Origin: an uncultured Candidatus Saccharibacteria bacterium
Lineage (GTDB): Bacteria; Patescibacteriota; Minisyncoccia; Phycocordibacterales; JACOZG01
Length of the DNA stretch: 64,000 nt
Reading direction: 5' to 3'
Assembly (NCBI GenBank): GCA_964361825.1
Contig: CAYICB010000003.1
Coordinates: forward strand, 2,643-66,642
Both the position numbers and the translations under genes were made by a program. Below, piece after piece: positions 4,536-59,006 of the stretch (position 1 is its first letter; every line of letters starts with the position of its first letter). The notes below the pieces were generated by a model that made no database searches, was not told the DNA's origin, and was given only the letters and a program-made list of their open reading frames with translations.

Positions 4536-5640
4536 GGTTTTTATTTTCTACTTGATTAGGTCCAATAATATCGATATTCCAACCGGTGAGCTTGGCCGCT
4601 AGGCGGACATTTTGCCCGCCTTTACCCACCGCCAGCGAGAATTGATCGGGTTCTACTTCTACTTTTACCGTGCGATTGATGCCATCCAGAATCATGCCTT
4701 TAATTTTGGCCGGGGAGAGGGAGTTTTGGATAAAAACTTCTGGATTATCGGACCATTCCACAATATCAATTTTCTCTCCGCCGAGCTCGCTGATTACGGT
4801 ATTGACGCGCACTCCACGCTGGCCGACACAAGAACCCACCGGATCAATTTTGCGGTCTTTAGACGCCACGGCCACCTTGGTGCGGGAGCCGGCCTCTCTG
4901 GCCACCGAACGGAATTCTACCACGCCGGAAGCAATTTCTGGCGCTTCGAAGGAAAAAAGCTTTTCCACAAACTTAGGGTGAGCGCGGGAGAGTTTAAGGT
5001 TAATGCCGCGCGGCGTTTCTTCTACCGCATAGAGATAAGCCCGCAGGCGTTCGCCTTGGCGATAATGCTCACCCGGAATTTGCTCTTCGTAGGGGAGAAT
5101 CGCGGTGGTGCGGCCAAGGTCTAAGAAGACATTGCCGCGTTCCATCTTTTGCACCTTACCCGAGATCACTTCGCCTTGTTTATCGGTATATTCGCCCAGA
5201 ATCGAGGTGCGCTCGGCCTCGCGGATGCGTTGCACAATTACTTGCTTGGCGGTTTGAGCGGCAATACGGCCAAAATCGTCTTTGGTTTCAAGTGGGAAAA
5301 TAAGTTCCTCGCCCACTTGGGCCTCGCGTTTAATCTTCTTGGCATCCTCCAGCATAATATGATGCTCTTCGTCGAAGACCACGCGCTCATCGCCCTCGGC
5401 CACCTCTTCGTCTTCGGTTCTTAGCTTATTTTCATCTACCACAATCCGCACTTGGTAAAACTCGGTTTTGCCACTATCGAGATCAAACTGGGCGCGGATA
5501 ATCTGGCCGCGCTTACCAAAATCCTTTTTATAAGCGGCGGTTAAGGCATCGCCAATCGCCCCAAGGATTTTTTCCTTAGGGATACCGCGTTCTTCCTCGA
5601 GTTGCTCGAGGGCCGACTTTAATGTTTTTAAATCAATCAT
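4519..5640 (-). CDS. nusA: transcription termination/antitermination factor NusA
   Basis: N-terminal domain, S1 and two KH domains; typical NusA length. Confidence 0.9.
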   Translation of the reverse strand: MIDLKTLKSALEQLEEERGIPKEKILGAIGDALTAAYKKDFGKRGQIIRAQFDLDSGKTEFYQVRIVVDENKLRTEDEEVAEGDERVVFDEEHHIMLEDAKKIKREAQVGEELIFPLETKDDFGRIAAQTAKQVIVQRIREAERTSILGEYTDKQGEVISGKVQKMERGNVFLDLGRTTAILPYEEQIPGEHYRQGERLRAYLYAVEETPRGINLKLSRAHPKFVEKLFSFEAPEIASGVVEFRSVAREAGSRTKVAVASKDRKIDPVGSCVGQRGVRVNTVISELGGEKIDIVEWSDNPEVFIQNSLSPAKIKGMILDGINRTVKVEVEPDQFSLAVGKGGQNVRLAAKLTGWNIDIIGPNQVENKNHEPVA

Positions 5641-5677
5641 AATTTTTTAAGAAAAATGTCCGGGCGGGAAGCCGGAC
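5641..5677 (-). terminator. hairpin GTCCGG/CCGGAC followed by U-run on minus-strand RNA, between the TA pair and nusA
   Basis: perfect 6-bp stem, 8-nt loop, then A/T-rich run in the transcribed direction. Confidence 0.35.
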
Positions 5678-5738
5678 AGGACTGCTAAGCGGACACTAGT
5701 AGTCTACTATGGAAGTTATCAAGAAGCAAATTATGGTC

Positions 5739-6056
5739 TCAATCTTCAGAAAATCGTCCTTTGATGTGCTGGGCGGTATGGTAAACACGAATTAATTCGA
5801 ATCGAGTTGGGGTGTATTTGTAAAAGATAAGATAACGGAAACCCCTTAATGGATGCCACCTAACCTTTTTCAGTTTAGGTTCGTTATAGATCCACAGAGT
5901 GCCTATTTCGGGCATTGAGGCCAAGGTTTTAATCGTTTGAAAAAGAGTGTCTAAAAACCGCTGAGCGGTTTCGTTGTCGGCGTGTTTAATTAAGTAAGCT
6001 GTTTGCGAATCTATTTCTCTTTGAGCGATTGGACGGACAATGACTTCTCGATTCAC
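5739..6056 (-). CDS. type II toxin, ParE/RelE family
   Basis: ~100 aa, ParE/RelE-like C-terminal region (WHPLRGFRYLIFYKY..ELIRVYH); preceded by a small antitoxin-like gene. Confidence 0.7.
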   Translation of the reverse strand: MNREVIVRPIAQREIDSQTAYLIKHADNETAQRFLDTLFQTIKTLASMPEIGTLWIYNEPKLKKVRWHPLRGFRYLIFYKYTPTRFELIRVYHTAQHIKGRFSED

Positions 6057-6064
6057 GGTTCGAT

Positions 6065-6262
6065 TTATTTTTTTTCGAGAAGGCGATAACGATCTTTAAG
6101 CCAAGCTTTAGTCATTTTCACCGGTTTGCCACTATTAAGAGAAGCCAACAAACTATTTTCGATTTCTCGATGCAGGTGCTGTTTTAAGTCTTCCGAAACT
6201 ACTTTATTTTGCACCCAAGCTTGTGTTTCTTTTGGTAAGGATATTTTTAACGCTGTTTTCAT
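6065..6262 (-). CDS. type II antitoxin, ParD/RHH-like
   Basis: 65 aa; N-terminal KISLPKETQAWV resembles ParD ribbon-helix-helix; 9 nt upstream of the toxin gene. Confidence 0.5.
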   Translation of the reverse strand: MKTALKISLPKETQAWVQNKVVSEDLKQHLHREIENSLLASLNSGKPVKMTKAWLKDRYRLLEKK

Positions 6263-6318
6263 TGTTTTTCAGTTTAACATAATTTTAGGAGTTATCAACA
6301 ATCAAGCGCTCTTAAAAT

Positions 6319-6663
6319 TTGCTATCATTTAGCCATATGATTCGCCAAGAAGATTTGCCACCGGTCAAAACCCATCATCCGGTAATTATTACGCTGATTA
6401 TTTTAATTTTACTAGTCGTTATTGCCATTACTTTGGGCTATTTTGGTTTGTGGTCTCCGGCCGAGCCATCGGCCTCTGGCCTTACCGCCGAGCAGAAGGC
6501 GCGGATTTTAGAATCGCTCAATGCACCCGCCAATCAGCCGGAGCTTACCACCGAGCAGAAGGAACGCATTCTCAAATCGCTCAATGCGCCGGTAAACCAG
6601 CCCGAGCTCACCACCGAGCAAAAGGCCCGGATTTTAGAATCGCTTAATCGGCCAGTGAATTAA
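6319..6663 (+). CDS. membrane-anchored protein with 3 tandem 21-aa repeats (LTxEQKxRILxSLNxPxNQPE)
   Basis: N-terminal TM helix, then three near-identical in-frame repeats. Confidence 0.55.
   Translation: MLSFSHMIRQEDLPPVKTHHPVIITLIILILLVVIAITLGYFGLWSPAEPSASGLTAEQKARILESLNAPANQPELTTEQKERILKSLNAPVNQPELTTEQKARILESLNRPVN
6481..6660 (+). repeat. 63-bp tandem repeat x3 (coding)
   Basis: direct near-identical 63-nt units at 6481, 6544, 6607. Confidence 0.85.
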
Positions 6664-6692
6664 ATTAATAAATAAAAAATTAAATAAAATTT

Positions 6693-7790
6693 ATGAATAA
6701 AATTATCGATTACGCCAAAATTATTGCCCTTGCCCTTGTTTTGATGGCTGGTGTTGCCACGGTCCGTGCTTGGGATCCGCCACCCGACGACCCACCAACC
6801 TGTCCAGCCGGCACGCCGGGGTGTTTACCGCCAGTAAATGTGAGTGCGATAGATCAAACAAAACCGGCTCGCCTCACTTTGAATAGTTTAGCCGCGGTTT
6901 TTGCGAAATTGACGAATGGTAACGATAGTTATCAATTACTAAACAACTTGGTTTTGGGTGTAAATGGCAAGGTGGGAGCAGACTCATACTGCACGGCAGA
7001 TGGTGCTATTTGCACATCAGCCGCCAATCTGGGCAGTGGTCCGGATGGGGGGGTGGCCAGTTTGTCTGCTCTCAATGGTGGTGGGGTTCATTTTAACGGA
7101 GGTGGTTCTTTTGGACCATTCACTGGCGCCGTGACCACGGCACTAATCCCTTGTCCAGCAAATAAGATTTTGAAAGCGAGCGGTCCGGTGGGTTGGAGTA
7201 ATAATCCCGGGTGGACATGCGCCGATGACTTAACAACTGGAAATGTGGGTGGAGTTTCGCAATTGCTCGCCGGAGATAATATAACTCTTAGTCCTGAGGG
7301 TGGTACCGGGGTGGTAACTATCACTGCCACCGGTGGTACGGGCGGGGGGGATATTATGGGGATAAACACTGATGCCAGTGGGGGGTTAAGTGGTGGGGTT
7401 AATGCTGGGACGGCTAGCTTGAGAATCAAGGCTTGTACAGCGGGTCAAATTTTGAAATATCACAATACGGAAGATGAGCTTGGTTGGTATTGTGAAGAAG
7501 ATGAGAGTGCGAGCGTAAATGCCTCTGTCACATCCCCATATATGGCCACCGACAACACCGAGAACAATAGCCCGGTTTCTTTAACCATTGGTTCGAATCC
7601 GGAATTTTGTGCTTTAAACGAGGTTAGACTGACGCTTGAGGACGGTTCTTATATCACTGAGGACGCGCCACCAGGCAGATGCAGTGTGTATAAAAACAAT
7701 GTTGGTGAGTGGAAGGTTGAAGCAGATTTGGCTGGTGCCAACAGTAATGCATCATTGTCTTGCACGGCCCTCTGTCTTAATTTGCAATAA
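6693..7790 (+). CDS. secreted Gly/Thr-rich protein with conserved N-terminal W-PPP..TC..PGC..NVS..QTK module
   Basis: signal peptide; N-terminal module shared with the 8079 protein; Cys pairs. Confidence 0.6.
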   Translation: MNKIIDYAKIIALALVLMAGVATVRAWDPPPDDPPTCPAGTPGCLPPVNVSAIDQTKPARLTLNSLAAVFAKLTNGNDSYQLLNNLVLGVNGKVGADSYCTADGAICTSAANLGSGPDGGVASLSALNGGGVHFNGGGSFGPFTGAVTTALIPCPANKILKASGPVGWSNNPGWTCADDLTTGNVGGVSQLLAGDNITLSPEGGTGVVTITATGGTGGGDIMGINTDASGGLSGGVNAGTASLRIKACTAGQILKYHNTEDELGWYCEEDESASVNASVTSPYMATDNTENNSPVSLTIGSNPEFCALNEVRLTLEDGSYITEDAPPGRCSVYKNNVGEWKVEADLAGANSNASLSCTALCLNLQ

Positions 7791-23406: not shown

Positions 23407-23678
23407 GCCATATTTTAGCCTACTTGACAAATGGCTGCCAACTATGCTAAGCTATTGGGTAGGAAGTGAAGACAGGACCTTGAAAACTGAATAGCGAAGT
23501 ATAGGAAAACAATCGTTGAAAAACGACAATTGTTATTCCTCTTCGTCTCACGGAGGGATACGGGATAAATAACCGTTAAGCCTCGGTGCGACAAGAGGGA
23601 TCGCAAACTTTCGCAATGGGCGAGAGGGTGATCCAAAAGTGAGTTTTTTCCTGAGAAGATCGGGAGAAGGAGATAGTT

Positions 23679-24188
23679 ATGTTTAGCGTTAGTGATCCTT
23701 GCGTCATCGGATTTTATCGGGGAATGGCCATCACCAGCCAGAGCGATCTGGCTGACCAGCCGGAGGGATCGTACGTAAGTACGGTCTACCCGGCTTGGGT
23801 GGCGGCGAGCATGTTGGAAAACATGCTCGGGGCCACTCAGGCGGACCTTCGCCTTGCGGCGAAGGTCAAGGCCGTGGCCCGGCCCCTCACGGAGGAGGAG
23901 CTCGAAGAAATCGGCAACAAGGTTGTTGCCCGACTGAACAACCTTCCCCACATGGAGGTGGGGGAGGTCGAAGACGTGGAGGAGGTCGTCAACATCTTTT
24001 TTGAGGTCGTTGACTTCCTCTCCGTTGCCGGAGAGAGGGAGGCGGTGACGGAGGTCGTACGATTGGCGATGGAGAACGCTCAAAAGGGGTTGTTCTCCCC
24101 AGCCGCCGTTCAGGCGGCGGCAATCGCCGAAAGGGCGACCGATCGGAGGATCTTGGGGATTGTGAAGGAGGTAATCAACAACAATTAG
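23679..24188 (+). CDS. hypothetical acidic protein (GC-rich islet gene A)
   Basis: strong SD GGAGAAGGAG 7 nt upstream; GC-rich codon usage; opposite-strand ORF judged to be a GC artefact. Confidence 0.5.
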   Translation: MFSVSDPCVIGFYRGMAITSQSDLADQPEGSYVSTVYPAWVAASMLENMLGATQADLRLAAKVKAVARPLTEEELEEIGNKVVARLNNLPHMEVGEVEDVEEVVNIFFEVVDFLSVAGEREAVTEVVRLAMENAQKGLFSPAAVQAAAIAERATDRRILGIVKEVINNN

Positions 24189-24489: not shown

Positions 24490-24614
24490 ATGGCGCAAAA
24501 GGGAACGCGATTCGCTACGGCAATCACGTTTCCCTTCTGATTGAACCCGTAAACATGTGCTTGTGGGTTCAATGGAAGATTTTTTCCCGAGAAGATCGGG
24601 AGAAGGAGATAGTC

Positions 24615-24812
24615 ATGTTTATCGTCACAGTTCATGCGCAAGAAGGAAACGGGGACCATGTGCTTGGAACAAGCGGCGAATTCGCCACTTGTTCCTCGGA
24701 GGTGGCCGTGGCGGGGTTTGCCACGGCCGAGGCTGCCGTTGCCGCTGGAATGGCGGCGGTGAATCGCTTTGGGGCAACCCCCAAAGCGGTCGAGGTCCGC
24801 ACCTCGTTCTAA
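24615..24812 (+). CDS. small hypothetical protein (islet gene C, 65 aa)
   Basis: preceded by a ~40-nt leader near-identical to that of gene A, including GGAGAAGGAG. Confidence 0.5.
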   Translation: MFIVTVHAQEGNGDHVLGTSGEFATCSSEVAVAGFATAEAAVAAGMAAVNRFGATPKAVEVRTSF

Positions 24813-52100: not shown

Positions 52101-52613
52101 TTATTTAGCTCTTTCGATAATTAAACTGGGGCCACGCGGACCGCTTTGGATTGGCGAGGCAATTTGGTAATTCTCGGAAATAAAGCGGAGCAAGCGCCCG
52201 AGCCTTTCTTCTAAAAACTTTTTATCAAAGTATTTGGCCCGACCAGAGAGGAAGAGTTCTACCTTCACGCGGTGACCCTCGCGCAGGAATTCCGAAATTT
52301 TGCCCGCTTTAATCTCTAGATCATGATCGCCAGTGCCAATTTTGGCCTGAATCGATTTGACCTCGCCGCTTGCTCCCTTGGGCTTAGTCTGCTTGGTTTT
52401 TTTATTTTCGAGATACTGATACTTGCCGAAGTCCATAATTTTGGCCACGGGCGGATTGGCCGTGGGTGAGATCTCAATGAGATCAAGGCCCGAGGCATCA
52501 GCTTGGCGCAGGGCTTCGCTAAGAGAGATGACCCCAAAATTATCACCATTCTCTCCGATGACTCGGAGTTCCGGTGACTTGATTTGATGATTAATTCTAA
52601 TCCGGTCTTTCAC
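52101..52613 (-). CDS. infC: translation initiation factor IF-3
   Basis: RINHQIKSPELRVIGENG.. N-domain and C-domain. Confidence 0.9.
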   Translation of the reverse strand: MKDRIRINHQIKSPELRVIGENGDNFGVISLSEALRQADASGLDLIEISPTANPPVAKIMDFGKYQYLENKKTKQTKPKGASGEVKSIQAKIGTGDHDLEIKAGKISEFLREGHRVKVELFLSGRAKYFDKKFLEERLGRLLRFISENYQIASPIQSGPRGPSLIIERAK

Positions 52614-52737
52614 TCGTTAGTGCTGGTATGGTAATCGGTTTTGCCACAAAAGTCAAATCTTGCTAGGCTGGGTATGGCTATTGGTTCTCTGAGGCAAAAT
52701 TGCTCTTTATAATCATCAAGAAAGGAGGTGATTTAAG

Positions 52738-52953
52738 GTGGTTAAATTCTGGAACCCTAAAACCGAATGGGAAGAAGCCAAAAAGTATTATGGCTTTACT
52801 GATGAGGAGGCCGCAATGTACTTCTACAGCCAGAGCCTGCTTCCGGAGGGCAAAAAGCGTTTCTTGCCTTCTGTTGGGCAACGGGCCGAGGTTTGGGAGC
52901 TAGCTCAGGCTAGAATTAGGCGCAAGAGACCGGGAGGTGGCGTCGATGATTAA
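52738..52953 (+). CDS. hypothetical 71-aa protein (GTG start, SD AAAGGAGG)
   Basis: good SD; 3' end lies in the left copy of the direct repeat. Confidence 0.4.
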   Translation: MVKFWNPKTEWEEAKKYYGFTDEEAAMYFYSQSLLPEGKKRFLPSVGQRAEVWELAQARIRRKRPGGGVDD

Positions 52954-53018
52954 GGGGCGAGTGAAGAAGAAAAAAAGCCGTTTGTTGGTTAACCCCCAAC
53001 CTACGGCTTTTTGATTTT
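52931..53018 (+). repeat. direct repeat, left copy (SD + 22-codon Lys-rich ORF + terminator hairpin)
   Basis: 53-nt identical core GAAGAAAAAAAGCCGTTTGTTGGTTAACCCCCAACCTACGGCTTTTTGATTTT shared with 53697-53751. Confidence 0.85.
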
Positions 53019-53640
53019 TATGACAGACAAATCAAATGTGGACACATCACTAAGGTCGTCTTGGTTGGGCACAACAAGATCGATCGTGGTAGCATTGAAT
53101 AACTTCAAAAAAATGACTGTCGCTTTATCACTCATCCCTCCCGAACGGATCGAGAAAATAATTTTGGTAATCCGCAACCAACGAGTGATTATCGATACTG
53201 ATCTGGCCGCCCTGTACGGGGTAACCACCAAGCGACTCAATGAACAGGCCAAGCGTAACCGTGATCGTTTTCCCGCCGATTTCATGTTTCATTTGACCGT
53301 TAATGAGTGGGCCAACTTGAAGTCGCAATTTGCGACCTCAAGTGCTGACCATGGTGGTCGTCGTACTCTTCCGTTTGTGTTTACCGAACATGGCGCTATC
53401 ATGGCTGCCAATATTCTCAATAGCCCCGTGGCGGTCAAAGCGAGCATTCAGGTTGTGCGCGCCTTCGTCCGTCTACGGCGAATGCTAATTGATAACGCCG
53501 AGCTCGCGAAGAAGCTGTTTTCCCTCGAAGCGAAGTACGATGACCAGTTCAAGGTCGTGTTCCGGGCGATCCGTGAGCTGATGACGCCACCACCGGAGCC
53601 GGATAAGCCGAAAATTGGGTTTCGGGTGGATAATAAATAG
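53011..53640 (+). CDS. ORF6N-domain protein (phage/mobile-element-associated, KilA-N-related); alternative start at 53113
   Basis: VIIDTDLAALYGVTTKRLNEQAKRNRDRFPADFMFHLT..ATSS..GGRR matches ORF6N domain. Confidence 0.7.
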   Translation: MIFMTDKSNVDTSLRSSWLGTTRSIVVALNNFKKMTVALSLIPPERIEKIILVIRNQRVIIDTDLAALYGVTTKRLNEQAKRNRDRFPADFMFHLTVNEWANLKSQFATSSADHGGRRTLPFVFTEHGAIMAANILNSPVAVKASIQVVRAFVRLRRMLIDNAELAKKLFSLEAKYDDQFKVVFRAIRELMTPPPEPDKPKIGFRVDNK

Positions 53641-53660
53641 TTGGCCATTTGGGAAAATGC

Positions 53661-53751
53661 AAAGGAGGAAAGGTGATGACCCGGGCGAAGCGAGTTAGGA
53701 AGAAAAAAAGCCGTTTGTTGGTTAACCCCCAACCTACGGCTTTTTGATTTT
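53661..53751 (+). repeat. direct repeat, right copy (SD + 23-codon Lys-rich ORF + terminator hairpin)
   Basis: same 53-nt core plus weaker upstream similarity; stem AAGCCGT/ACGGCTT then TTTTTGATTTTTT. Confidence 0.85.
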
Positions 53752-53815
53752 TTGTGGCAAGGCTTAGCCTTGTTGAGATGACTTGAATTGCCCGATTTAA
53801 TCAATGTGATCAATA

Positions 53816-55435
53816 TTAATCCCCAATGTATTCTACCGAATTACTAAACAGATCGAACGCGGATTCAATCTGCCCTCTCGAATTAGTTGTATACCCGCCA
53901 ACACTAATTGAAACGATCTTATTTGGAGTAGCAAAATCAAATGAGCGAACTAGCCAATCGCCCTTACTGGTTGTGAGTGTGTTCCAATATGAAACAAAGG
54001 GTACTTCTGTGTCTAGATTTATCCCACTCTCATCCTCAATAAACTCTATGTGCTCACTCGATTTTTGAACGATTTTTGTTAAATCATCGAGTGTTGCATG
54101 CTTGCTTTCTGGTAGATTAATAAAACTAATTAGATAGCGAAAACCGTCATTACTATACACATCATAAAAAACAAAGTTTTCATTCTCGGTACGCACGGGT
54201 TTATCAGGAAAACCAACGCTCCACCCCTCTTTTAAACTATAAGTTTTCCACCCCACAGACCCATGGTTCTCTGTTTGGTCTAAATCTCCTTCGGTAGAGA
54301 TGTGTTTAATTTCTCCAAAGTTATTTCCAAGAATGTTTTCCATTTCTGACAATGCCTCCTCCTGTGCCCTGACCGTTACGTCGGCAACAATAATTACTCG
54401 CTTTTCGTTACCCCTCTGGTCGGTGAATGAAAGGTATGGCAAACCTACCGGTTCGTCACTGAAAAATTTTGATAAGTAGTCATTGAGTTCACGGGAATTA
54501 TTACAGGAATCAGATTTAACAACGAAATTTGATTTGTAATTCTCTATGTCTAGTTCCCTCACAATATTGCACTGTTCTAGGTTTTCTAAACGAGTTATTA
54601 CCCCAAGTTTGTCTGACAAAATAACAACGCTATAGTAGTAACTACTCTGATTAATCCGTGCAACAATACCCAAATATGCAATATAACCAGAAACGCCAAG
54701 TAATAGTATCAGTATAATAGTGAGTAGGGTCGTGTTTTTCGGCCTTTCGGGTTTTACAGTCAGTTGTTCTTCCTTAGAAACATTGTGTGGCAAAGTATAT
54801 TCCTCATTTTTAAATTTATAAAACAGATAGATTGACCCAGCAACGGCCAAAACTAGTGTGGCTAGACCGAACTCAACATTCGTAATATCTGTCACATGTA
54901 GCGAAATGTTAAATAAACTGTGAACAAGTACTGCCAAAATAAATCCTTTGAAAAATAATTTAGTTCTCTCTTTCTCGCCTCTAAACCATAATAATCCCCA
55001 GTAGAAACCAAAAATACCTGAGGTTGCCAAATGCATAAGTGTTGTGGCAATCGCGCGAAGGCCAAATGTATTCAATACATCTGTCCAAATAAATATAGAA
55101 TTGAACCCCAAACTATGGTTCATTTGATAGGACTCATAGAAGTATTTGAAATTCTCAACAAAAGCAAAAGCTGCTGCCGCTACCACCATATAAATGATCC
55201 CGTCAACAATTTGAGTAAAATACTTTTTATTCCTTTGAACGACCGTTTTAGCAATCCAGTACTTAACAAATTCCTCGATCGGAGCAACAAGAAAAAACGT
55301 TGAGATAACGCTCAGCCAAATTAATTTCGCAGTAGTGTCTGGTGAACTAAATAAATACTGCTCCCCAATACTTTCTGCAATATATGTCACTGGGAGTGCC
55401 AGAATTACGCCGAGAAGAAAGATCTTCAAAAGCAA
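53816..55435 (-). CDS. PrsW-family intramembrane protease fused to a large extracytoplasmic domain
   Basis: PrsW motifs EEFVKY, FAFVEN, H..G in the TM region; AT-rich codon usage unlike neighbours. Confidence 0.65.
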   Translation of the reverse strand: MLLKIFLLGVILALPVTYIAESIGEQYLFSSPDTTAKLIWLSVISTFFLVAPIEEFVKYWIAKTVVQRNKKYFTQIVDGIIYMVVAAAAFAFVENFKYFYESYQMNHSLGFNSIFIWTDVLNTFGLRAIATTLMHLATSGIFGFYWGLLWFRGEKERTKLFFKGFILAVLVHSLFNISLHVTDITNVEFGLATLVLAVAGSIYLFYKFKNEEYTLPHNVSKEEQLTVKPERPKNTTLLTIILILLLGVSGYIAYLGIVARINQSSYYYSVVILSDKLGVITRLENLEQCNIVRELDIENYKSNFVVKSDSCNNSRELNDYLSKFFSDEPVGLPYLSFTDQRGNEKRVIIVADVTVRAQEEALSEMENILGNNFGEIKHISTEGDLDQTENHGSVGWKTYSLKEGWSVGFPDKPVRTENENFVFYDVYSNDGFRYLISFINLPESKHATLDDLTKIVQKSSEHIEFIEDESGINLDTEVPFVSYWNTLTTSKGDWLVRSFDFATPNKIVSISVGGYTTNSRGQIESAFDLFSNSVEYIGD

Positions 55436-55551
55436 TTTGCGCGGTTCAGGTTCTCGGTAGTCCTTTCTTAGAAATATAATGAGCCAAAATAAACTGGGCA
55501 GGAGAGCTAAAATTAGAAGAAAAAAATTGTCATTGTTATATTATAATCCTA

Positions 55552-55857
55552 TTACTCTGACCTTTTTCTGTTTGATATTCCCTCCTCGTGTTGTTTTACG
55601 AGCTTCTTGTAAATAAAGTGATTGGCTACAAGGATAAGAACTATGACCACAACAAGAGCTGAGGCATTATCAATAATTGTAATATCATTGATGTTTATTC
55701 TTTCAGACCCGACATTGTATCCGTAAATTAAACCTACAATGAAAGACAGTACCCAAGCAATGGGCTTAAAGAGGATTATTACTACTAAATATTCTTTCCA
55801 CGAATTTCCAAAGGTTATCTTAGGTTTCCAGCCATCACTTGCTCTATATTTTTTCAT
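55552..55857 (-). CDS. small two-TM membrane protein, hypothetical
   Basis: 101 aa, AT-rich, two hydrophobic helices. Confidence 0.4.
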   Translation of the reverse strand: MKKYRASDGWKPKITFGNSWKEYLVVIILFKPIAWVLSFIVGLIYGYNVGSERININDITIIDNASALVVVIVLILVANHFIYKKLVKQHEEGISNRKRSE

Positions 55858-56145
55858 ATTAATTTTTTATTTTGCCAACAAACACAAAAAGCCCACCGCC
55901 AGGCGACAACCTTTCGGTCGTCCACACCTCTTTCGAAGCGTGACCAATCACGGTGAACCTAGACGATGGGTTCTTTACCCGTGATTGGTTTTTTAAGCCA
56001 TGCCCAACTAAACAGTTGGGTTTAGGCCATTATTAAATTGTGCTTACAATTTAGCATTAAATTCGCACAGAGAAAACAACCCGTATCAATTATATGATCG
56101 AGTGGTTTACCATGAGCGAGTTCGTCTTTCAACGAACGAGTCGAA

Positions 56146-57026: not shown

Positions 57027-58946
57027 GTGATGAAAAAGATGTCAAAATTGAATAAAACCAGTCCGCGAGGCTTTGGTCAATTTGGTCGCCAAATTGCTTC
57101 CACGGTCTTGATTTTTCTCGTTTTGCTCGGAATCTATTCTGCGGTGACCAGCAATCAGCAAACCGCCAAAGAGCTAACTTTATCAGAATTAGCCCAAGCG
57201 ATTAATCAGGGTGAGGTGGCCAAAATTGTGATTCAAGGCGATGCTTTAGCTGTGACCCTGCAAACCGGGGAAGAGCTTCGGTCGCAAAAAGAGGCCGAAA
57301 CTTCGCTCTCCGAAAGTTTGGCTAATTATGGCGTTTTGCCGACTAGTTTGGGCGGGGTTTCGGTGGCGGTGGCTAATCCCTCGGGCCTTACTTTTTGGTT
57401 GCTCAATTTATTGCCTTTTATTTTACCAGCGATTTTTGTACTTCTGATTTTTTGGTTTATCTCGCGCCAAGTGCGCGGGGCTTCGGTGCAAGCGTTCTCT
57501 TTTGGTCAATCGCGCGCGCGAGTAATTGACCCCAATGATCAGTCGCAGAAAATTACTTTCAAAGATGTGGCTGGCGTAAAGGAGGCCAAAGAAGAATTGT
57601 TAGAAATTGTCGATTTTCTCAAAAGTCCAAAAAAGTTTTTAGACATTGGCGCCAAGATTCCCAAGGGTGTTTTGCTTATTGGTGCGCCGGGGACCGGTAA
57701 AACTTTGTTGGCGCGCGCGGTGGCGGGTGAAGCGGGTGTGCCCTTCTTTTATCTCTCGGGTTCGGAGTTTGTTGAGATGTTTGTAGGCGTGGGCGCTTCG
57801 CGCGTGCGCGACCTCTTCAAAATGGCCAAGAAAACGGCCCCAGCGATTATTTTTATTGATGAAATCGATGCCATCGGTCGTCATCGCGGTGGCGGCATGG
57901 GTGGCGGCAATGATGAGCGCGAGCAAACACTTAATCAAATTCTCGTGGAGATGGATGGCTTCGAGCCTAATGAAAAACTGATTGTAATGGCGGCCACCAA
58001 TCGGCCTGATGTGCTCGATATCGCGCTTTTGCGCCCCGGTCGCTTTGACCGTCGCGTGGTGCTCGATAAGCCGGATCTTAAAGATCGTGAAGAAATTCTT
58101 GGCATTTATGCCCGCAAGAAACCGCTCCACGAGGATGTGAACTTGCGCGTCATTGCTCAACGCACGCCCGGTTTCTCTGGCGCGGATCTCGCTAATGTGA
58201 TGAATGAAGGCGCGATTTTGGCGGCGCGCGAGAATCGCAAGCAGATTACGCAATACGATCTCATTCGCTCGGTGGAGAAGGTAATTCTTGGTCCGGAGCG
58301 CAAGAGTCATATCTTGTCTGAACGAGAAAAGAAAATCACGGCTTACCACGAGATGGGCCATGCGCTCATTGGCTCGGTTTTGCCGCATTCGGATCCGGTG
58401 CACAAGGTCTCGATTATTTCTCGCGGGCATGCGGCGGGCTACACGCTTAAATTGCCGTTCGAAGACCGCAAACTGGAGTCGAAGAAAGAATTCTTGGATG
58501 AAATCGCGGCGCTCCTCGGTGGTTATGCCGCCGAGCAACTGATTTTTGGCGATATTACTACCGGCGCTTCTAATGATCTTGCGGTGGCGACCTATACGGC
58601 GCGTAATATGGTCACCAAGTATGGTATGAGCGAGAAGCTCGGGCCGGTGGCCTTCGACACTGGCGGCGAACGCCACTTGGTGAGCGGCGGGCAACTAGTG
58701 GAGAAGGCGTCATCGGAGGCGGTGTCGGCGCTCATTGATCAAGAAATTTCTAAAATTCTTAGCGAAGGTCTGACGCGCGCTAATCAAGTGCTTACCGATT
58801 ACCGCGCCGCTCTCGACGCGATGTCGGAAGAACTGATTAAAGTCGAAACCATCGATCGCGAAGACTTCGATAAACTGCTTATTTTGAACGGCATCAAGCC
58901 GAAGGAGGATACTAATAAGGTTGTGGATAACTTATCGGCCCGGTAG
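57027..58946 (+). CDS. ftsH: ATP-dependent zinc metalloprotease FtsH
   Basis: two N-terminal TM, AAA Walker A/B, SRH, HEMGH zinc site. Confidence 0.95.
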
Positions 58947-59006
58947 GATTCGAACCTACAACCAGCCGTGTATAAGACGGCGGCTCCACCATTGAGCTAC
59001 GGGCCG
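58935..59006 (-). tRNA. tRNA, anticodon UAU (Ile, AUA-decoding), no encoded CCA
   Basis: cloverleaf: acceptor CGGCCCG/CGGGCCG, D GCTC..GAGC, anticodon stem GCCGT/ACGGC with loop CTTATAC, T-arm GTAGG-TTCGAAT-CCTAC; overlaps ftsH stop by ~11 nt on the opposite strand. Confidence 0.7.

What the first reader, a model, noticed from the sequence alone, without database searches (positions are those of the whole stretch)
52931..53751. ORF6N mobile-element gene bracketed by ~55-90-bp direct repeats that each contain an SD, a 22-23-codon Lys-rich ORF and a terminator
A 53-nt sequence (GAAGAAAAAAAGCCGTTTGTTGGTTAACCCCCAACCTACGGCTTTTTGATTTT) occurs at 52966-53018 and at 53697-53751, with weaker similarity extending ~35 nt upstream in both copies. 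Each copy encodes M-(IKG/TRA)-RV(K/R)KKKSRLLVNPQPTAF, ending inside a hairpin+T-run terminator. The only gene between the copies is an ORF6N-domain protein, a family typical of prophages and integrative elements. This looks like att-site or target duplication from insertion of a minimal element into the 3' end of a small gene. The duplicated mini-ORF may itself be functional, as a leader or entericidin-like peptide.
Basis: seen in the sequence. Interest (0 to 1): 0.7.

Follow-up and report, generated by a model that had tools for sequence, protein, structure and literature searches.

The report
Conserved terminator duplicated around ORF6N gene
In a groundwater Patescibacterium, two copies of an unusually conserved terminator hairpin bracket an acquired ORF6N gene; the second copy still carries the tail of a displaced variant of a neighbouring small gene, so the repeat is a recombination scar, not a transposon footprint or a conserved peptide gene.

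Summary
The repeat is real: 63 nt at 97% identity (54 nt exact), two copies only, bracketing one ORF6N gene. A sister strain from the same aquifer has the same locus with one copy and no ORF6N. There the copy is the 3' end plus terminator of an intact 71-codon gene (B71), a very divergent homologue of the window's own 71-codon gene (A71). So copy 1 (T1) is A71's terminator. Copy 2 (T2) is the last 14 codons of B71 plus B71's terminator.

The weak upstream similarity is the homologous C-terminal coding sequence of the two small genes. About 983 bp (A71 + T1 + ORF6N) replaces 223 bp of the B-type locus. I read this as a displacement-type recombination scar, not a target-site duplication.

One thing is unexplained. 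The terminator (T) is more conserved than ribosomal-protein genes in a different species (core 50 nt with one indel, versus infC 78% and the small gene 60%). A GGAGG–ATG start signal in front of it is kept in three contexts, although the mini-ORF's peptide is not.

ORF6N matches the defence candidate PDC-S05. This is a new example of a known process, of moderate interest.

The parts
52101..52613 (-). infC (IF-3). It is the conserved left anchor of the locus and is identical in protein sequence in both strain types.
   Evidence: Pfam IF3_N and IF3_C. Exact-protein look-up returns both haplotypes.
52666..53648 (+). Strain-specific 983-bp segment: A71 promoter region, A71, T1, spacer and ORF6N. 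It replaces 223 bp (promoter region plus the first ~57 codons of B71) of the sister-strain locus.
   Evidence: blastn of L004 and L090-L092 against the window: homology stops at 52665 and resumes at 53649. Alignments.
52738..52953 (+). A71, an intact 71-codon small gene (A-type) divergent from infC. It has a strong SD (AAGGAGGTGAT) and a GTG start.
   Evidence: ORF and SD. Called as a gene in independent assemblies. AlphaFold single-sequence pLDDT 81, four helices. Homologue P0128 sits at the same position in L194.
52946..53014 (+). Mini-ORF 1 (22 codons). It overlaps the last two sense codons and the stop codon of A71 in another frame and runs through the T1 hairpin. Probably not a conserved peptide.
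   Evidence: Frame not conserved in L194. No Pfam family.
52957..53019 (.). T1, copy 1 of the conserved element. Hairpin arms are 52972-52988 and 52996-53012, with an A-run before and a T-run after, which is the shape of a bidirectional intrinsic terminator. It is the native 3' module of A71.
   Evidence: The same element follows the A-type homologue in L194.
53020..53112 (+). 93-nt spacer between T1 and the ORF6N start. The simple scan found no sigma-70-like promoter here. NCBI/ENA annotate it as an N-terminal extension (206 aa), which has no counterpart in homologues.
53113..53640 (+). ORF6N-domain protein of 175 aa, intact. It matches the PADLOC defence candidate PDC-S05 and PHROG 'anti-repressor' families. 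Closest homologues are ~70% identical and come from non-Patescibacteria.
   Evidence: Homologue contexts in type I R-M and toxin-antitoxin islands.
53649..53698 (+). B', the truncated 3' remnant of a B-type small gene. Codons 58-71 are 53654-53695 and the stop is 53696-53698. It is 100% identical to the intact B71 of the sister strain.
   Evidence: tblastn of B71 residues 58-71 at 100%. blastn. Alignment.
53676..53747 (+). Mini-ORF 2 (23 codons), the same situation as mini-ORF 1. It is also present unchanged in the sister strain, where it overlaps the end of intact B71.
53690..53752 (.). T2, copy 2 of the conserved element. Hairpin arms are 53705-53721 and 53729-53745. It lies between the convergent ORF6N/B' and PrsW genes.
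   Evidence: Identical to the single T of the sister strain.
53757..53775 (.). Second small hairpin just after T2 (CAAGGC-TTA-GCCTTG). The sister strain keeps it through a paired C>T / G>A change.
53816..55390 (-). PrsW-family membrane protease gene in a low-GC (35-40%) stretch. The sister strain has other genes here (X185, then a membrane-protein ORF that I read by eye as LivH-like).

Best explanation
The repeat is two tandem copies of the conserved 3' module of a small gene family that sits next to infC in this Patescibacteria lineage. The module (T) consists of the last codons of the small gene followed by an A-run, a hairpin and a T-run. It has the shape of a bidirectional intrinsic terminator.

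The population carries two very divergent versions of the small gene, A71 and B71, at the same position. Each ends in T. The window strain descends from a B-type locus (infC | B71-T | ...). A recombination event brought in a segment [A71 promoter-A71-T1-spacer-ORF6N].

On the left the segment joined within the conserved infC-side sequence. On the right it joined illegitimately, about 8 nt after the ORF6N stop codon, to codon ~57 of B71. This deleted the B71 promoter and its first four-fifths. It left the tail B' plus T2.

This is the pattern of homology-facilitated illegitimate recombination, or 'sequential displacement'. The direct repeat was therefore not created by the insertion. T1 came with A71, and T2 is the resident copy.

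The SD-like GGAGG, the ATG and the Lys-rich mini-ORF arise from three things read in another frame: the Arg/Lys/Gly-rich C-terminal codons of the small genes, the A-run, and the hairpin.

Function: T1 ends A71 transcripts, and ORF6N is then expressed by read-through or from an unrecognised promoter. T2 terminates ORF6N and the convergent PrsW gene.

Shown: the anatomy, the polarity (B' is a truncation of an intact B71), the empty site, and the conservation of T. Inferred: the recombination route and terminator activity.
For: 1. A sister strain is 97.7-99.3% identical in infC-rplT and has an identical IF-3 protein. Its locus reads infC | B71 (71 codons) | one T | a different convergent gene, with no ORF6N.
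2. Window 53649-53771 is 95.9% identical to that strain, and the B'-T2 part has no mismatch. All five differences lie downstream, in the second hairpin.
3. B' equals B71 codons 58-71.
4. A simple deletion between T1 and T2 would leave A71, not B71. Full-length B71 is therefore ancestral to B', which sets the polarity.
5. A71 and B71 are homologues:
- They share position, strand, length and SD.
- The global alignment has z = 3.8 and the local alignment z = 4.6.
- Their predicted helix patterns are alike, with pLDDT 81 and 83.
- A profile of the two finds one A-like protein (P0128) and one B-like protein (P0129) elsewhere.
- Read past their stop codons, both genes enter T in the same frame.
6. 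In L194, a second species, the A-like gene sits in the same synteny and is followed by T. T therefore belongs to the small-gene module independently of ORF6N.
7. T folds as a strong hairpin on both strands, with a U-run after it on each.
8. No recombinase or transposase gene lies in or around the segment. There are no terminal inverted repeats.
9. Published analogue: displacement of T6SS effector genes that leaves 3' ends and downstream genes behind, attributed to homology-facilitated illegitimate recombination (PMC5361080).
Against: - The donor arrangement (A71-T-spacer-ORF6N without B') was not observed.
- The right junction lies only ~8 nt after the ORF6N stop, and the left edge of the novel DNA after T1 lies exactly at the end of the T-run. 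Such tidy edges would be more expected of a defined cassette or a crossover inside T.
- Only two haplotypes were recovered, so intermediate steps are missing.
- A71/B71 homology is statistically modest: BLASTP finds nothing.
- T's extreme sequence conservation is not explained by a terminator role alone.
- Terminator activity is untested, and the simple terminator scan did not list T.
Confidence: 0.55

Rival explanations
1. Campbell-type or site-specific integration at T. A 733-bp unit [T-spacer-ORF6N-B'], circular or carried on foreign DNA, recombined by one crossover inside T with an A-type chromosome (A71-T-flank). This duplicated T around the cargo. T would act as an att-like or attC-like site, and B' would be sequence the unit captured in an earlier B-type host.
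For: - One crossover within the 54-nt identical core explains all four junctions, including the sharp T1|spacer edge at 53019/53020.
- T is conserved at sequence level, not just in structure, as protein-recognised sites are.
- In strain comparisons T is flanked by variable DNA on both sides.
- It gives two co-oriented single-gene units, each ending in an imperfect palindrome. This resembles a short integron-like array.
Against: - No integrase or other recombinase gene is in the unit or within several kb.
- No other T copies exist in the 64-kb window, in about 1 Mb of related loci, or in the collections scanned.
- The integron core motifs RYYYAAC/GTTRRRY are not at the ends of the palindrome (read from the sequence).
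- It needs an extra earlier event to explain B'.
- The predicted haplotype A71-T-PrsW was not seen.
Confidence: 0.2
2. The mini-ORF and T form a translation-dependent regulatory device, as a leader peptide or attenuator. Ribosomes initiating at the conserved SD-ATG run over the Lys codons into the 5' arm of the hairpin. This modulates termination and so the expression of the co-directional downstream gene. This concerns T's function and is compatible with either recombination route.
For: - GGAGG, then 6-8 nt, then ATG is kept in all three contexts (A, B, L194). The upstream gene reads these bases in different frames: GGA GGT / AGG AGG, and GAT GAT TAA / CGA TGA / GAT GAC.
- In L194 the ATG overlaps the small gene's TGA stop (ATGA), a typical coupling arrangement.
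- T1 and the L194 copy are each followed by a co-directional gene.
- T's unusual conservation asks for a role beyond plain termination.
Against: - The peptide is not conserved: one extra A shifts the frame in L194.
- No alternative antiterminator pairing is predicted. Only the hairpin appears in the consensus fold, and there is no variation with which to test covariation.
- T2 and the sister-strain T have no co-directional downstream gene.
- There are only three sequences.
- No Rfam family matches.
Confidence: 0.2
3. Old in-situ tandem duplication of the small-gene module, giving [A71-T][B71-T] as paralogues. ORF6N later replaced most of the second copy in the window strain, and the sister strain lost the first copy.
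For: Two co-oriented modules each end in T. A-like and B-like subfamilies both exist outside this species.
Against: - No genome with both intact modules was seen. L194 and the sister strain each have a single module directly next to infC.
- Losing A71-T1 while keeping B71 would need a second special deletion whose left edge happens to lie in the infC spacer.
Confidence: 0.08
4. Classical transposition or integrase-mediated insertion of a minimal ORF6N element into the small gene, creating a target-site duplication or att repeats.
For: Direct repeats bracket a single accessory gene, and an empty site exists.
Against: - The left copy is attached to a different gene version (A71) than the right copy (B').
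- The change is a replacement, not an insertion.
- The repeat is 63-100 nt with graded similarity upstream, far longer than transposase duplications.
- There are no terminal inverted repeats, no transposase and no integrase.
- T pre-exists as a single copy in other genomes.
Confidence: 0.03
5. Assembly chimera joining A-type and B-type haplotypes at the shared repeat.
For: Both haplotypes occur in the same aquifer. One Logan contig (L002) ends inside T1.
Against: - The full arrangement through both copies is recovered in the window and in two independent ENA assemblies of other samples, L001 and L101.
- ORF6N is never seen in the B-type context.
- The L002 end is what a k = 31 graph gives at a 54-nt repeat (my own reasoning about the assembler, not a tool result).
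Confidence: 0.02

Closest known systems
Sequential displacement / orphan-module arrays (T6SS effector-immunity clusters of Vibrio cholerae; Rhs and CDI loci), attributed to homology-facilitated illegitimate recombination (PMC5361080)
   Same: An incoming module is anchored by a conserved upstream sequence. It displaces the 5' part of the resident gene and pushes the resident gene's 3' end and downstream sequence behind the new module. Divergent versions of one gene occupy one locus.
   Different: Here the variable gene is a 71-codon helical protein of unknown role, not a toxin. One event is visible rather than an array. The passenger is an unrelated ORF6N gene. The host is a Patescibacterium. 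The route is inferred, not demonstrated.
Phage 'morons' and other single-gene accessory insertions
   Same: One accessory gene with atypical phylogenetic affinity sits between resident genes and is bounded by a terminator.
   Different: It lies in a chromosome, not a prophage. No own promoter was recognised. It is bracketed by two copies of the neighbour's terminator.
Integron gene cassettes with attC sites
   Same: Co-oriented single-gene units each end in a ~60-100-nt imperfect palindrome with unpaired bases. Sequence around the palindromes varies between strains.
   Different: There is no IntI, attI or Pc nearby. The RYYYAAC/GTTRRRY core motifs are not at the palindrome ends. The palindrome carries a U-run and looks like a terminator. 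Only two units exist, and one is a housekeeping-adjacent small gene.
Campbell-type integration / IMEX elements at dif
   Same: A duplicated site flanks an integrated unit that has no recombinase of its own.
   Different: T is not at a GC-skew switch. It is not dif-like in sequence or context. No excised form is known.
Leader-peptide transcription attenuators
   Same: A short ORF with an SD and a run of one kind of codon (Lys) leads into a terminator hairpin, upstream of a co-directional gene in two of four copies.
   Different: There is no alternative antiterminator structure. The peptide frame is not conserved. The ORF starts inside the preceding gene.
ORF6N / KilA-N-like 'anti-repressor' proteins; PADLOC candidate PDC-S05
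   Same: Full-length match to PDC-S05 models (E = 1.5e-48) and to PF10543. Close homologues lie in type I R-M and toxin-antitoxin islands, as here in a strain-variable spot.
   Different: No R-M or other defence genes lie next to it here. The PDC-S05 representative tested in the cited preprint (10.1101/2024.09.26.614923) carries a RhuM domain, so its result cannot be carried over to this protein.

Membership tests
Intrinsic (Rho-independent) terminator, bidirectional | Stable GC-containing stem-loop immediately followed by a U-run, on both strands for a bidirectional one | tested here: met
   Hairpin of -22 to -29 kcal/mol, z = -5 to -6. U-runs follow it on both strands: UUUUUGAUUUUU and UUUUUUUCUUC. 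The simple scan did not list it, presumably because of the internal loop.
Intrinsic (Rho-independent) terminator, bidirectional | Transcripts actually end there | not testable with these tools
   Needs RNA 3'-end mapping.
Transposon target-site duplication | Short identical duplication made by the insertion, flanking an element with terminal inverted repeats and a transposase | tested here: not met
   The repeat is 63 nt or more, imperfect, and pre-exists as a single copy elsewhere. There are no terminal inverted repeats and no transposase. The two copies belong to different gene versions.
Integrase-mediated island with att repeats | Tyrosine or serine recombinase gene in the element, and an identical core at both ends within an otherwise unchanged target | tested here: not met
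   The only gene is ORF6N. Neighbours within several kb carry no recombinase domain. The target is not unchanged: B71 is four-fifths deleted and A71 is added.
Integron cassette / attC | Adjacent intI, attI and Pc | tested here: not met
   The genes on both sides are infC and a PrsW-like protease.
Integron cassette / attC | Inverse core RYYYAAC and core GTTRRRY at the outer ends of the palindrome | tested here: not met
   By reading the sequence, the outer ends are AAAAAGCCG / CGGCTTTTT. The near-matches CCCCAAC / GTTGGGG lie next to the loop.
dif site / IMEX | Unique site at the replication terminus, where GC skew switches | tested here: not met
   GC skew is positive on both sides of T over about 58 kb.
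Leader-peptide attenuator | Short translated ORF with SD upstream of a terminator | tested here: inconclusive
   SD-ATG is present in all three contexts. Translation is untested.
Leader-peptide attenuator | Mutually exclusive antiterminator/terminator structures and a regulated co-directional gene | tested here: not met
   Only the terminator hairpin is predicted. Two of the four copies have no co-directional downstream gene.
Entericidin-like small peptide | Lipoprotein signal with Cys, a hydrophobic segment, and a Pfam match | tested here: not met
   The mini-ORF has no Cys and no hydrophobic stretch, and no Pfam match at E <= 1.
ORF6N domain family (PF10543) / PADLOC PDC-S05 | Significant full-length match to the family models | tested here: met
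   PF10543 at 111.5 bits against a cut-off of 27.8. PDLC04856 at E = 1.5e-48 over positions 6-175 of 177. Thirty-three homologues at 60-69% identity, with the invariant residues kept.
ORF6N domain family (PF10543) / PADLOC PDC-S05 | Anti-phage activity | not testable with these tools
   Only a different PDC-S05 representative was tested, in the preprint 10.1101/2024.09.26.614923.
Displacement by homology-facilitated illegitimate recombination | One junction in sequence shared by donor and recipient, the other junction non-homologous, with a truncated resident gene left behind | tested here: met
   Left edge at 52665/52666, at the end of a shared infC-side sequence. Right edge at about 53648/53649, inside B71, with at most a few nt of microhomology. 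The B' remnant is kept.
Displacement by homology-facilitated illegitimate recombination | Identified donor arrangement | tested here: not met
   No contig with A71-T-spacer-ORF6N lacking B' was found. In L194, T is followed by a different co-directional gene.

The most novel reading that the evidence does not exclude
T may not be just a terminator. It could be a sequence-specific functional element of a small Patescibacteria lineage. One possibility is a recombination site at which single-gene units such as [ORF6N + T] are captured behind the infC-adjacent small gene, by a recombinase encoded elsewhere. Another is a conserved RNA device whose hairpin is invaded by ribosomes starting at the conserved SD-ATG. 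Either would explain why 50-60 nt of 'terminator' are better conserved than ribosomal-protein genes, while the gene it belongs to is hypervariable.
Probability: 0.12. Interest if true: 0.7.

Novelty: new member of a known kind. Interest (0 to 1): 0.38.

Why it matters
The case shows at nucleotide resolution how a streamlined, episymbiont-type genome acquires a defence-candidate gene with no mobile-element machinery. The route is recombination at a polymorphic locus, which leaves a dated scar.

It also warns against reading "direct repeats + SD + short ORF" as att sites or peptide genes when they are the tails of divergent gene versions.

The one point that could matter more widely is the terminator-like element. 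It is conserved far beyond its coding neighbours. If that reflects a recombination or regulatory function, it would be a new handle on gene flux or gene control in Patescibacteria.

Tried and rejected
- dif/IMEX idea for T (palindrome of two ~12-nt arms and a 7-nt spacer): rejected. GC skew stays positive on both sides.
- Integron attC: rejected on motifs and the absence of intI.
- Known RNA family: none at E <= 1 on either strand of 52500-54000.
- T as antisense or pairing partner of tmRNA, tRNA or another window sequence: only chance 10-14-mers.
- T as a multi-copy terminator or REP-like family. No support anywhere:
  - No further copy in the window.
  - A covariance model finds only the known copies (93-100 bits), with generic terminators at 26 bits or less, in 1.05 Mb of related loci.
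  - Zero hits in genome contigs and viral contigs.
  - One hit in metagenome contigs, which is the sister-strain contig.
  - Caveat: the collection pattern was exact in the stems and would have missed the L194-type variant.
- tmRNA-3'-end att repeat for the low-GC PrsW island: none.
- Mini-ORF as a known small-protein family: none.
- Homologues of A71 and B71 by word-indexed search: only themselves. Found only by the exhaustive profile search.
- ORF6N as an autonomous mobile gene with different contexts for one protein: the most widespread close homologue (P0108) is always in the same type I R-M operon.
- Donor or intermediate haplotypes: not found with the look-ups available.
- Look-ups of the 206-aa ORF6N and the 524-aa PrsW as read from the window returned nothing.
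Full report
**1. Observation**

The window carries a direct repeat at 52957-53019 and 53690-53752. It is 63 nt with two mismatches, and 54 nt are exact. A 41-nt core occurs twice and never in 100 shuffles. No third copy exists in the 64 kb.

Each copy is a 17-bp hairpin with a 2x2 internal loop and a 7-nt loop. An A-run precedes it and TTTTTGATTTTT follows it. It folds well on both strands, with z about -5 to -6.

The only gene between the copies is an ORF6N-domain protein (PF10543, E = 2.4e-32). Its family-supported start is 53113, giving 175 aa.

Three independent assemblies span both copies, namely the window, L001 and L101. Two more contigs, L003 and L006, run through copy 1 into or towards ORF6N. 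The arrangement is therefore not a chimera.

**2. Context**

The organism is a groundwater Patescibacterium of the Paceibacteria type, sampled in the Hainich wells. The closest species representative has IF-3 at 78% identity.

Gene order is rplT(-), rpmI(-), infC(-), then a 71-codon gene A71(+), T1, ORF6N(+), T2, a PrsW-like gene(-), tmRNA(-) and smpB(-). The stretch between infC and the tmRNA gene differs completely in the nearest species representative. Its PrsW part has low GC, 35-40% against about 48%.

**3. The key comparison**

Looking up contigs that encode the identical IF-3 returned a second haplotype from well H51: L004 and L089-L092. It is 97.7-99.3% identical in the housekeeping genes.

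Next to infC this haplotype has a different 71-codon gene, B71. One copy of the hairpin element follows it, then a different convergent gene (X185), then a membrane-protein ORF that I read by eye as LivH-like. There is no ORF6N.

Homology with the window stops at 52665 and resumes at 53649. Window 53649-53771 is 95.9% identical to that strain. There is no mismatch in the part that corresponds to the last 14 codons of B71 plus the hairpin element.

Copy 1 is the terminator of the intact A71. A deletion between the two copies would leave A71, not B71. Intact B71 is therefore ancestral to B', and the window arrangement is the derived one.

Relative to the B-type locus, 983 bp (A71 promoter region, A71, T1, a 93-nt spacer and ORF6N) replace 223 bp (the B71 promoter region and about 57 codons).

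**4. A71 and B71 are real, divergent homologues**

BLASTP sees nothing between them. The other evidence points to homology:
- They share position, strand, length and the SD.
- The global alignment scores z = 3.8 and the local alignment z = 4.6 against shuffles.
- Single-sequence AlphaFold models have pLDDT 81 and 83 with matching helix patterns.
- An exhaustive profile search with the pair finds an A-like protein (P0128) and a B-like protein (P0129).
- Read past their stop codons, both genes enter the hairpin element in the same frame...DD*GASEEEKKPFVG* and ...DDPGEAS*EEKKPFVG*.

It is homologous C-terminal coding sequence, in which GGAGG encodes Gly-Gly or Arg-Arg and the ATG lies inside Asp-Asp codons.

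**5. The element in another species**

P0128 lies on L194 in the same synteny: SLOG gene, rplT, rpmI, infC | small gene. The same hairpin element follows it, and then a co-directional membrane-protein gene.

L194 is a different species, with IF-3 at 84% aa identity. Nucleotide identities are infC 78%, rplT 79%, the infC-small gene spacer 61% and the small gene 60% (44% aa). The 63-nt element is 92-94% identical. Its 50-nt core differs only by a one-base deletion in the internal loop, and the A-run just upstream of it has one extra A.

T is thus part of the small-gene module, independent of ORF6N. It is the best-conserved stretch of the locus. A consequence follows: the near-identity of T1 and T2 does not show that the insertion made a recent duplication. 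A-type and B-type modules would carry near-identical T anyway.

T is absent from 80 other Paceibacteria infC loci and from the collections scanned. The collection pattern was too strict to catch L194-like variants.

**6. The mini-ORF**

In L194 the extra A shifts the frame. The ORF reads MIRASRKKKKPFVG* and stops in the loop. The peptide ...SRLLVNPQPTAF is therefore not conserved. It has no family match and no entericidin-like features.

However, GGAGG followed 6-8 nt later by ATG is present in all three contexts. The upstream gene reads these bases in different frames: GAT GAT TAA, CGA TGA and GAT GAC. That is more than the coding explanation alone predicts.

Translation into the 5' arm of the hairpin, as a leader-like modulation of termination, therefore remains a live but unsupported idea. 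No alternative structure is predicted, and there is no variation with which to test covariation.

**7. ORF6N**

The protein belongs to a very large family whose members are 60-72% identical across phyla (Acidobacteria, Armatimonadetes, Gemmatimonadetes and others). No relative is closer than 72%.

It matches PHROG 'anti-repressor' families. It also matches, over its full length, the PADLOC defence candidate PDC-S05. One PDC-S05 representative, with a different domain, protected E. coli from phages in a preprint (10.1101/2024.09.26.614923).

Close homologues lie in type I R-M and toxin-antitoxin islands, or inside an hsdM-hsdS operon. None sits next to an integrase.

**8. How the structure arose**

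This step is inferred. The best fit is a displacement event of the homology-facilitated illegitimate kind. DNA carrying [infC side-A71-T-spacer-ORF6N] paired with a B-type chromosome on the conserved infC side. It joined illegitimately just after the ORF6N stop to codon ~57 of B71.

The same logic has been proposed for T6SS effector-immunity arrays and for Rhs/CDI orphan modules (PMC5361080).

The main rival is a single crossover inside T between an A-type chromosome and a 733-bp unit [T-spacer-ORF6N-B']. It accounts neatly for the sharp T1|spacer edge. It would also fit T's sequence-level conservation if T were a recombination site.

That rival needs an earlier event to load B' into the unit. 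It also lacks any recombinase, any further T copy and any excised form. Transposition with target duplication, an integrase island, an integron cassette and a dif-type site each fail a defining feature (see the membership tests).

**9. Verdict**

It is wrong on mechanism. The repeat is not a target duplication or an att core, and the mini-ORF is not a conserved peptide.

This is a new example of a known kind of event, accessory-gene gain by displacement at a polymorphic locus. One feature is genuinely unexplained: a terminator-like hairpin conserved beyond ribosomal-protein genes, with a conserved translation start in front of it.

Noticed in passing
L095 4945-5026 and 5543-5624; L105/L106 2880-2912 and 3601-3642; L093 5546-5600 and 5680-5734 (plus 4893-4920 and 5638-5665): Four of six distinct loci of the close ORF6N subfamily (at least 56% identical), counting the window, have imperfect direct repeats (76-97%) bracketing just the ORF6N gene. 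Same-geometry control windows and more distant phage homologues mostly have none: median score 18, control 95th percentile 24, three of about 400 control windows above 30, and one distant homologue (L141) at 57. In each case the extra copy is a truncated end of a neighbouring or previous gene. L095 has the promoter plus 9 codons of another ORF6N allele. L106 has the first 11 codons of the downstream AAA-ATPase gene. L093 has the last ~17 codons of the large helicase-like ORF downstream, by my reading of the sequence. This suggests that the family is often gained by displacement-type recombination between related genomes. The sample is small.
   Followed up: partly
window 53750-56000: A low-GC stretch (35-40% against about 48%) holds the PrsW-like gene and a 101-codon ORF. 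It lies between T2 and the 3' end of the tmRNA gene. It is replaced by other genes in the sister strain and in the nearest species. No repeat of the tmRNA 3' end was found.
   Followed up: partly
window 53757-75 versus L004 760-778: The small hairpin after T2 differs between strains by a paired C>T / G>A change that keeps the stem. All five strain differences in the 123-nt shared block fall in or next to this hairpin.
   Followed up: no
window 52738-52953; L004 838-1053; L194 3244-3450: The infC-adjacent small gene is a lineage-restricted, hypervariable family (A and B types, 22% identical). It is predicted to be a small helical protein and matches no known family. Its two types behave like alternative alleles of one locus.
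   Followed up: partly
window 58935-59006: A tRNA-Ile gene with anticodon TAT, uncommon in bacteria. The same is seen in the related locus L050.
   Followed up: no
window 23644-23689 and 24580-24625: A 46-nt direct repeat (93%) covers an SD and a start codon 936 nt apart. Two nearby ORFs appear to share a duplicated 5' leader.
   Followed up: no
window 6481-6669: Three tandem 63-nt units (71-79% identical), probably a repeated 21-residue motif at the end of a coding region.
   Followed up: no
window about 5600-6700: Gene orientation switches from the minus strand to the plus strand. GC skew goes from about 0 to a steady +0.1 for the remaining 58 kb. This could be a replication origin.
   Followed up: no
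L093 4890-4920, 5880-5940, 6030-6060; L095 4800-4930: Intergenic regions of the (non-Patescibacteria) genomes holding the closest ORF6N homologues are full of short tandem heptamer repeats, such as AAACAGC, GAGTTTT, CGAGTTT and GGACGTT.
   Followed up: no
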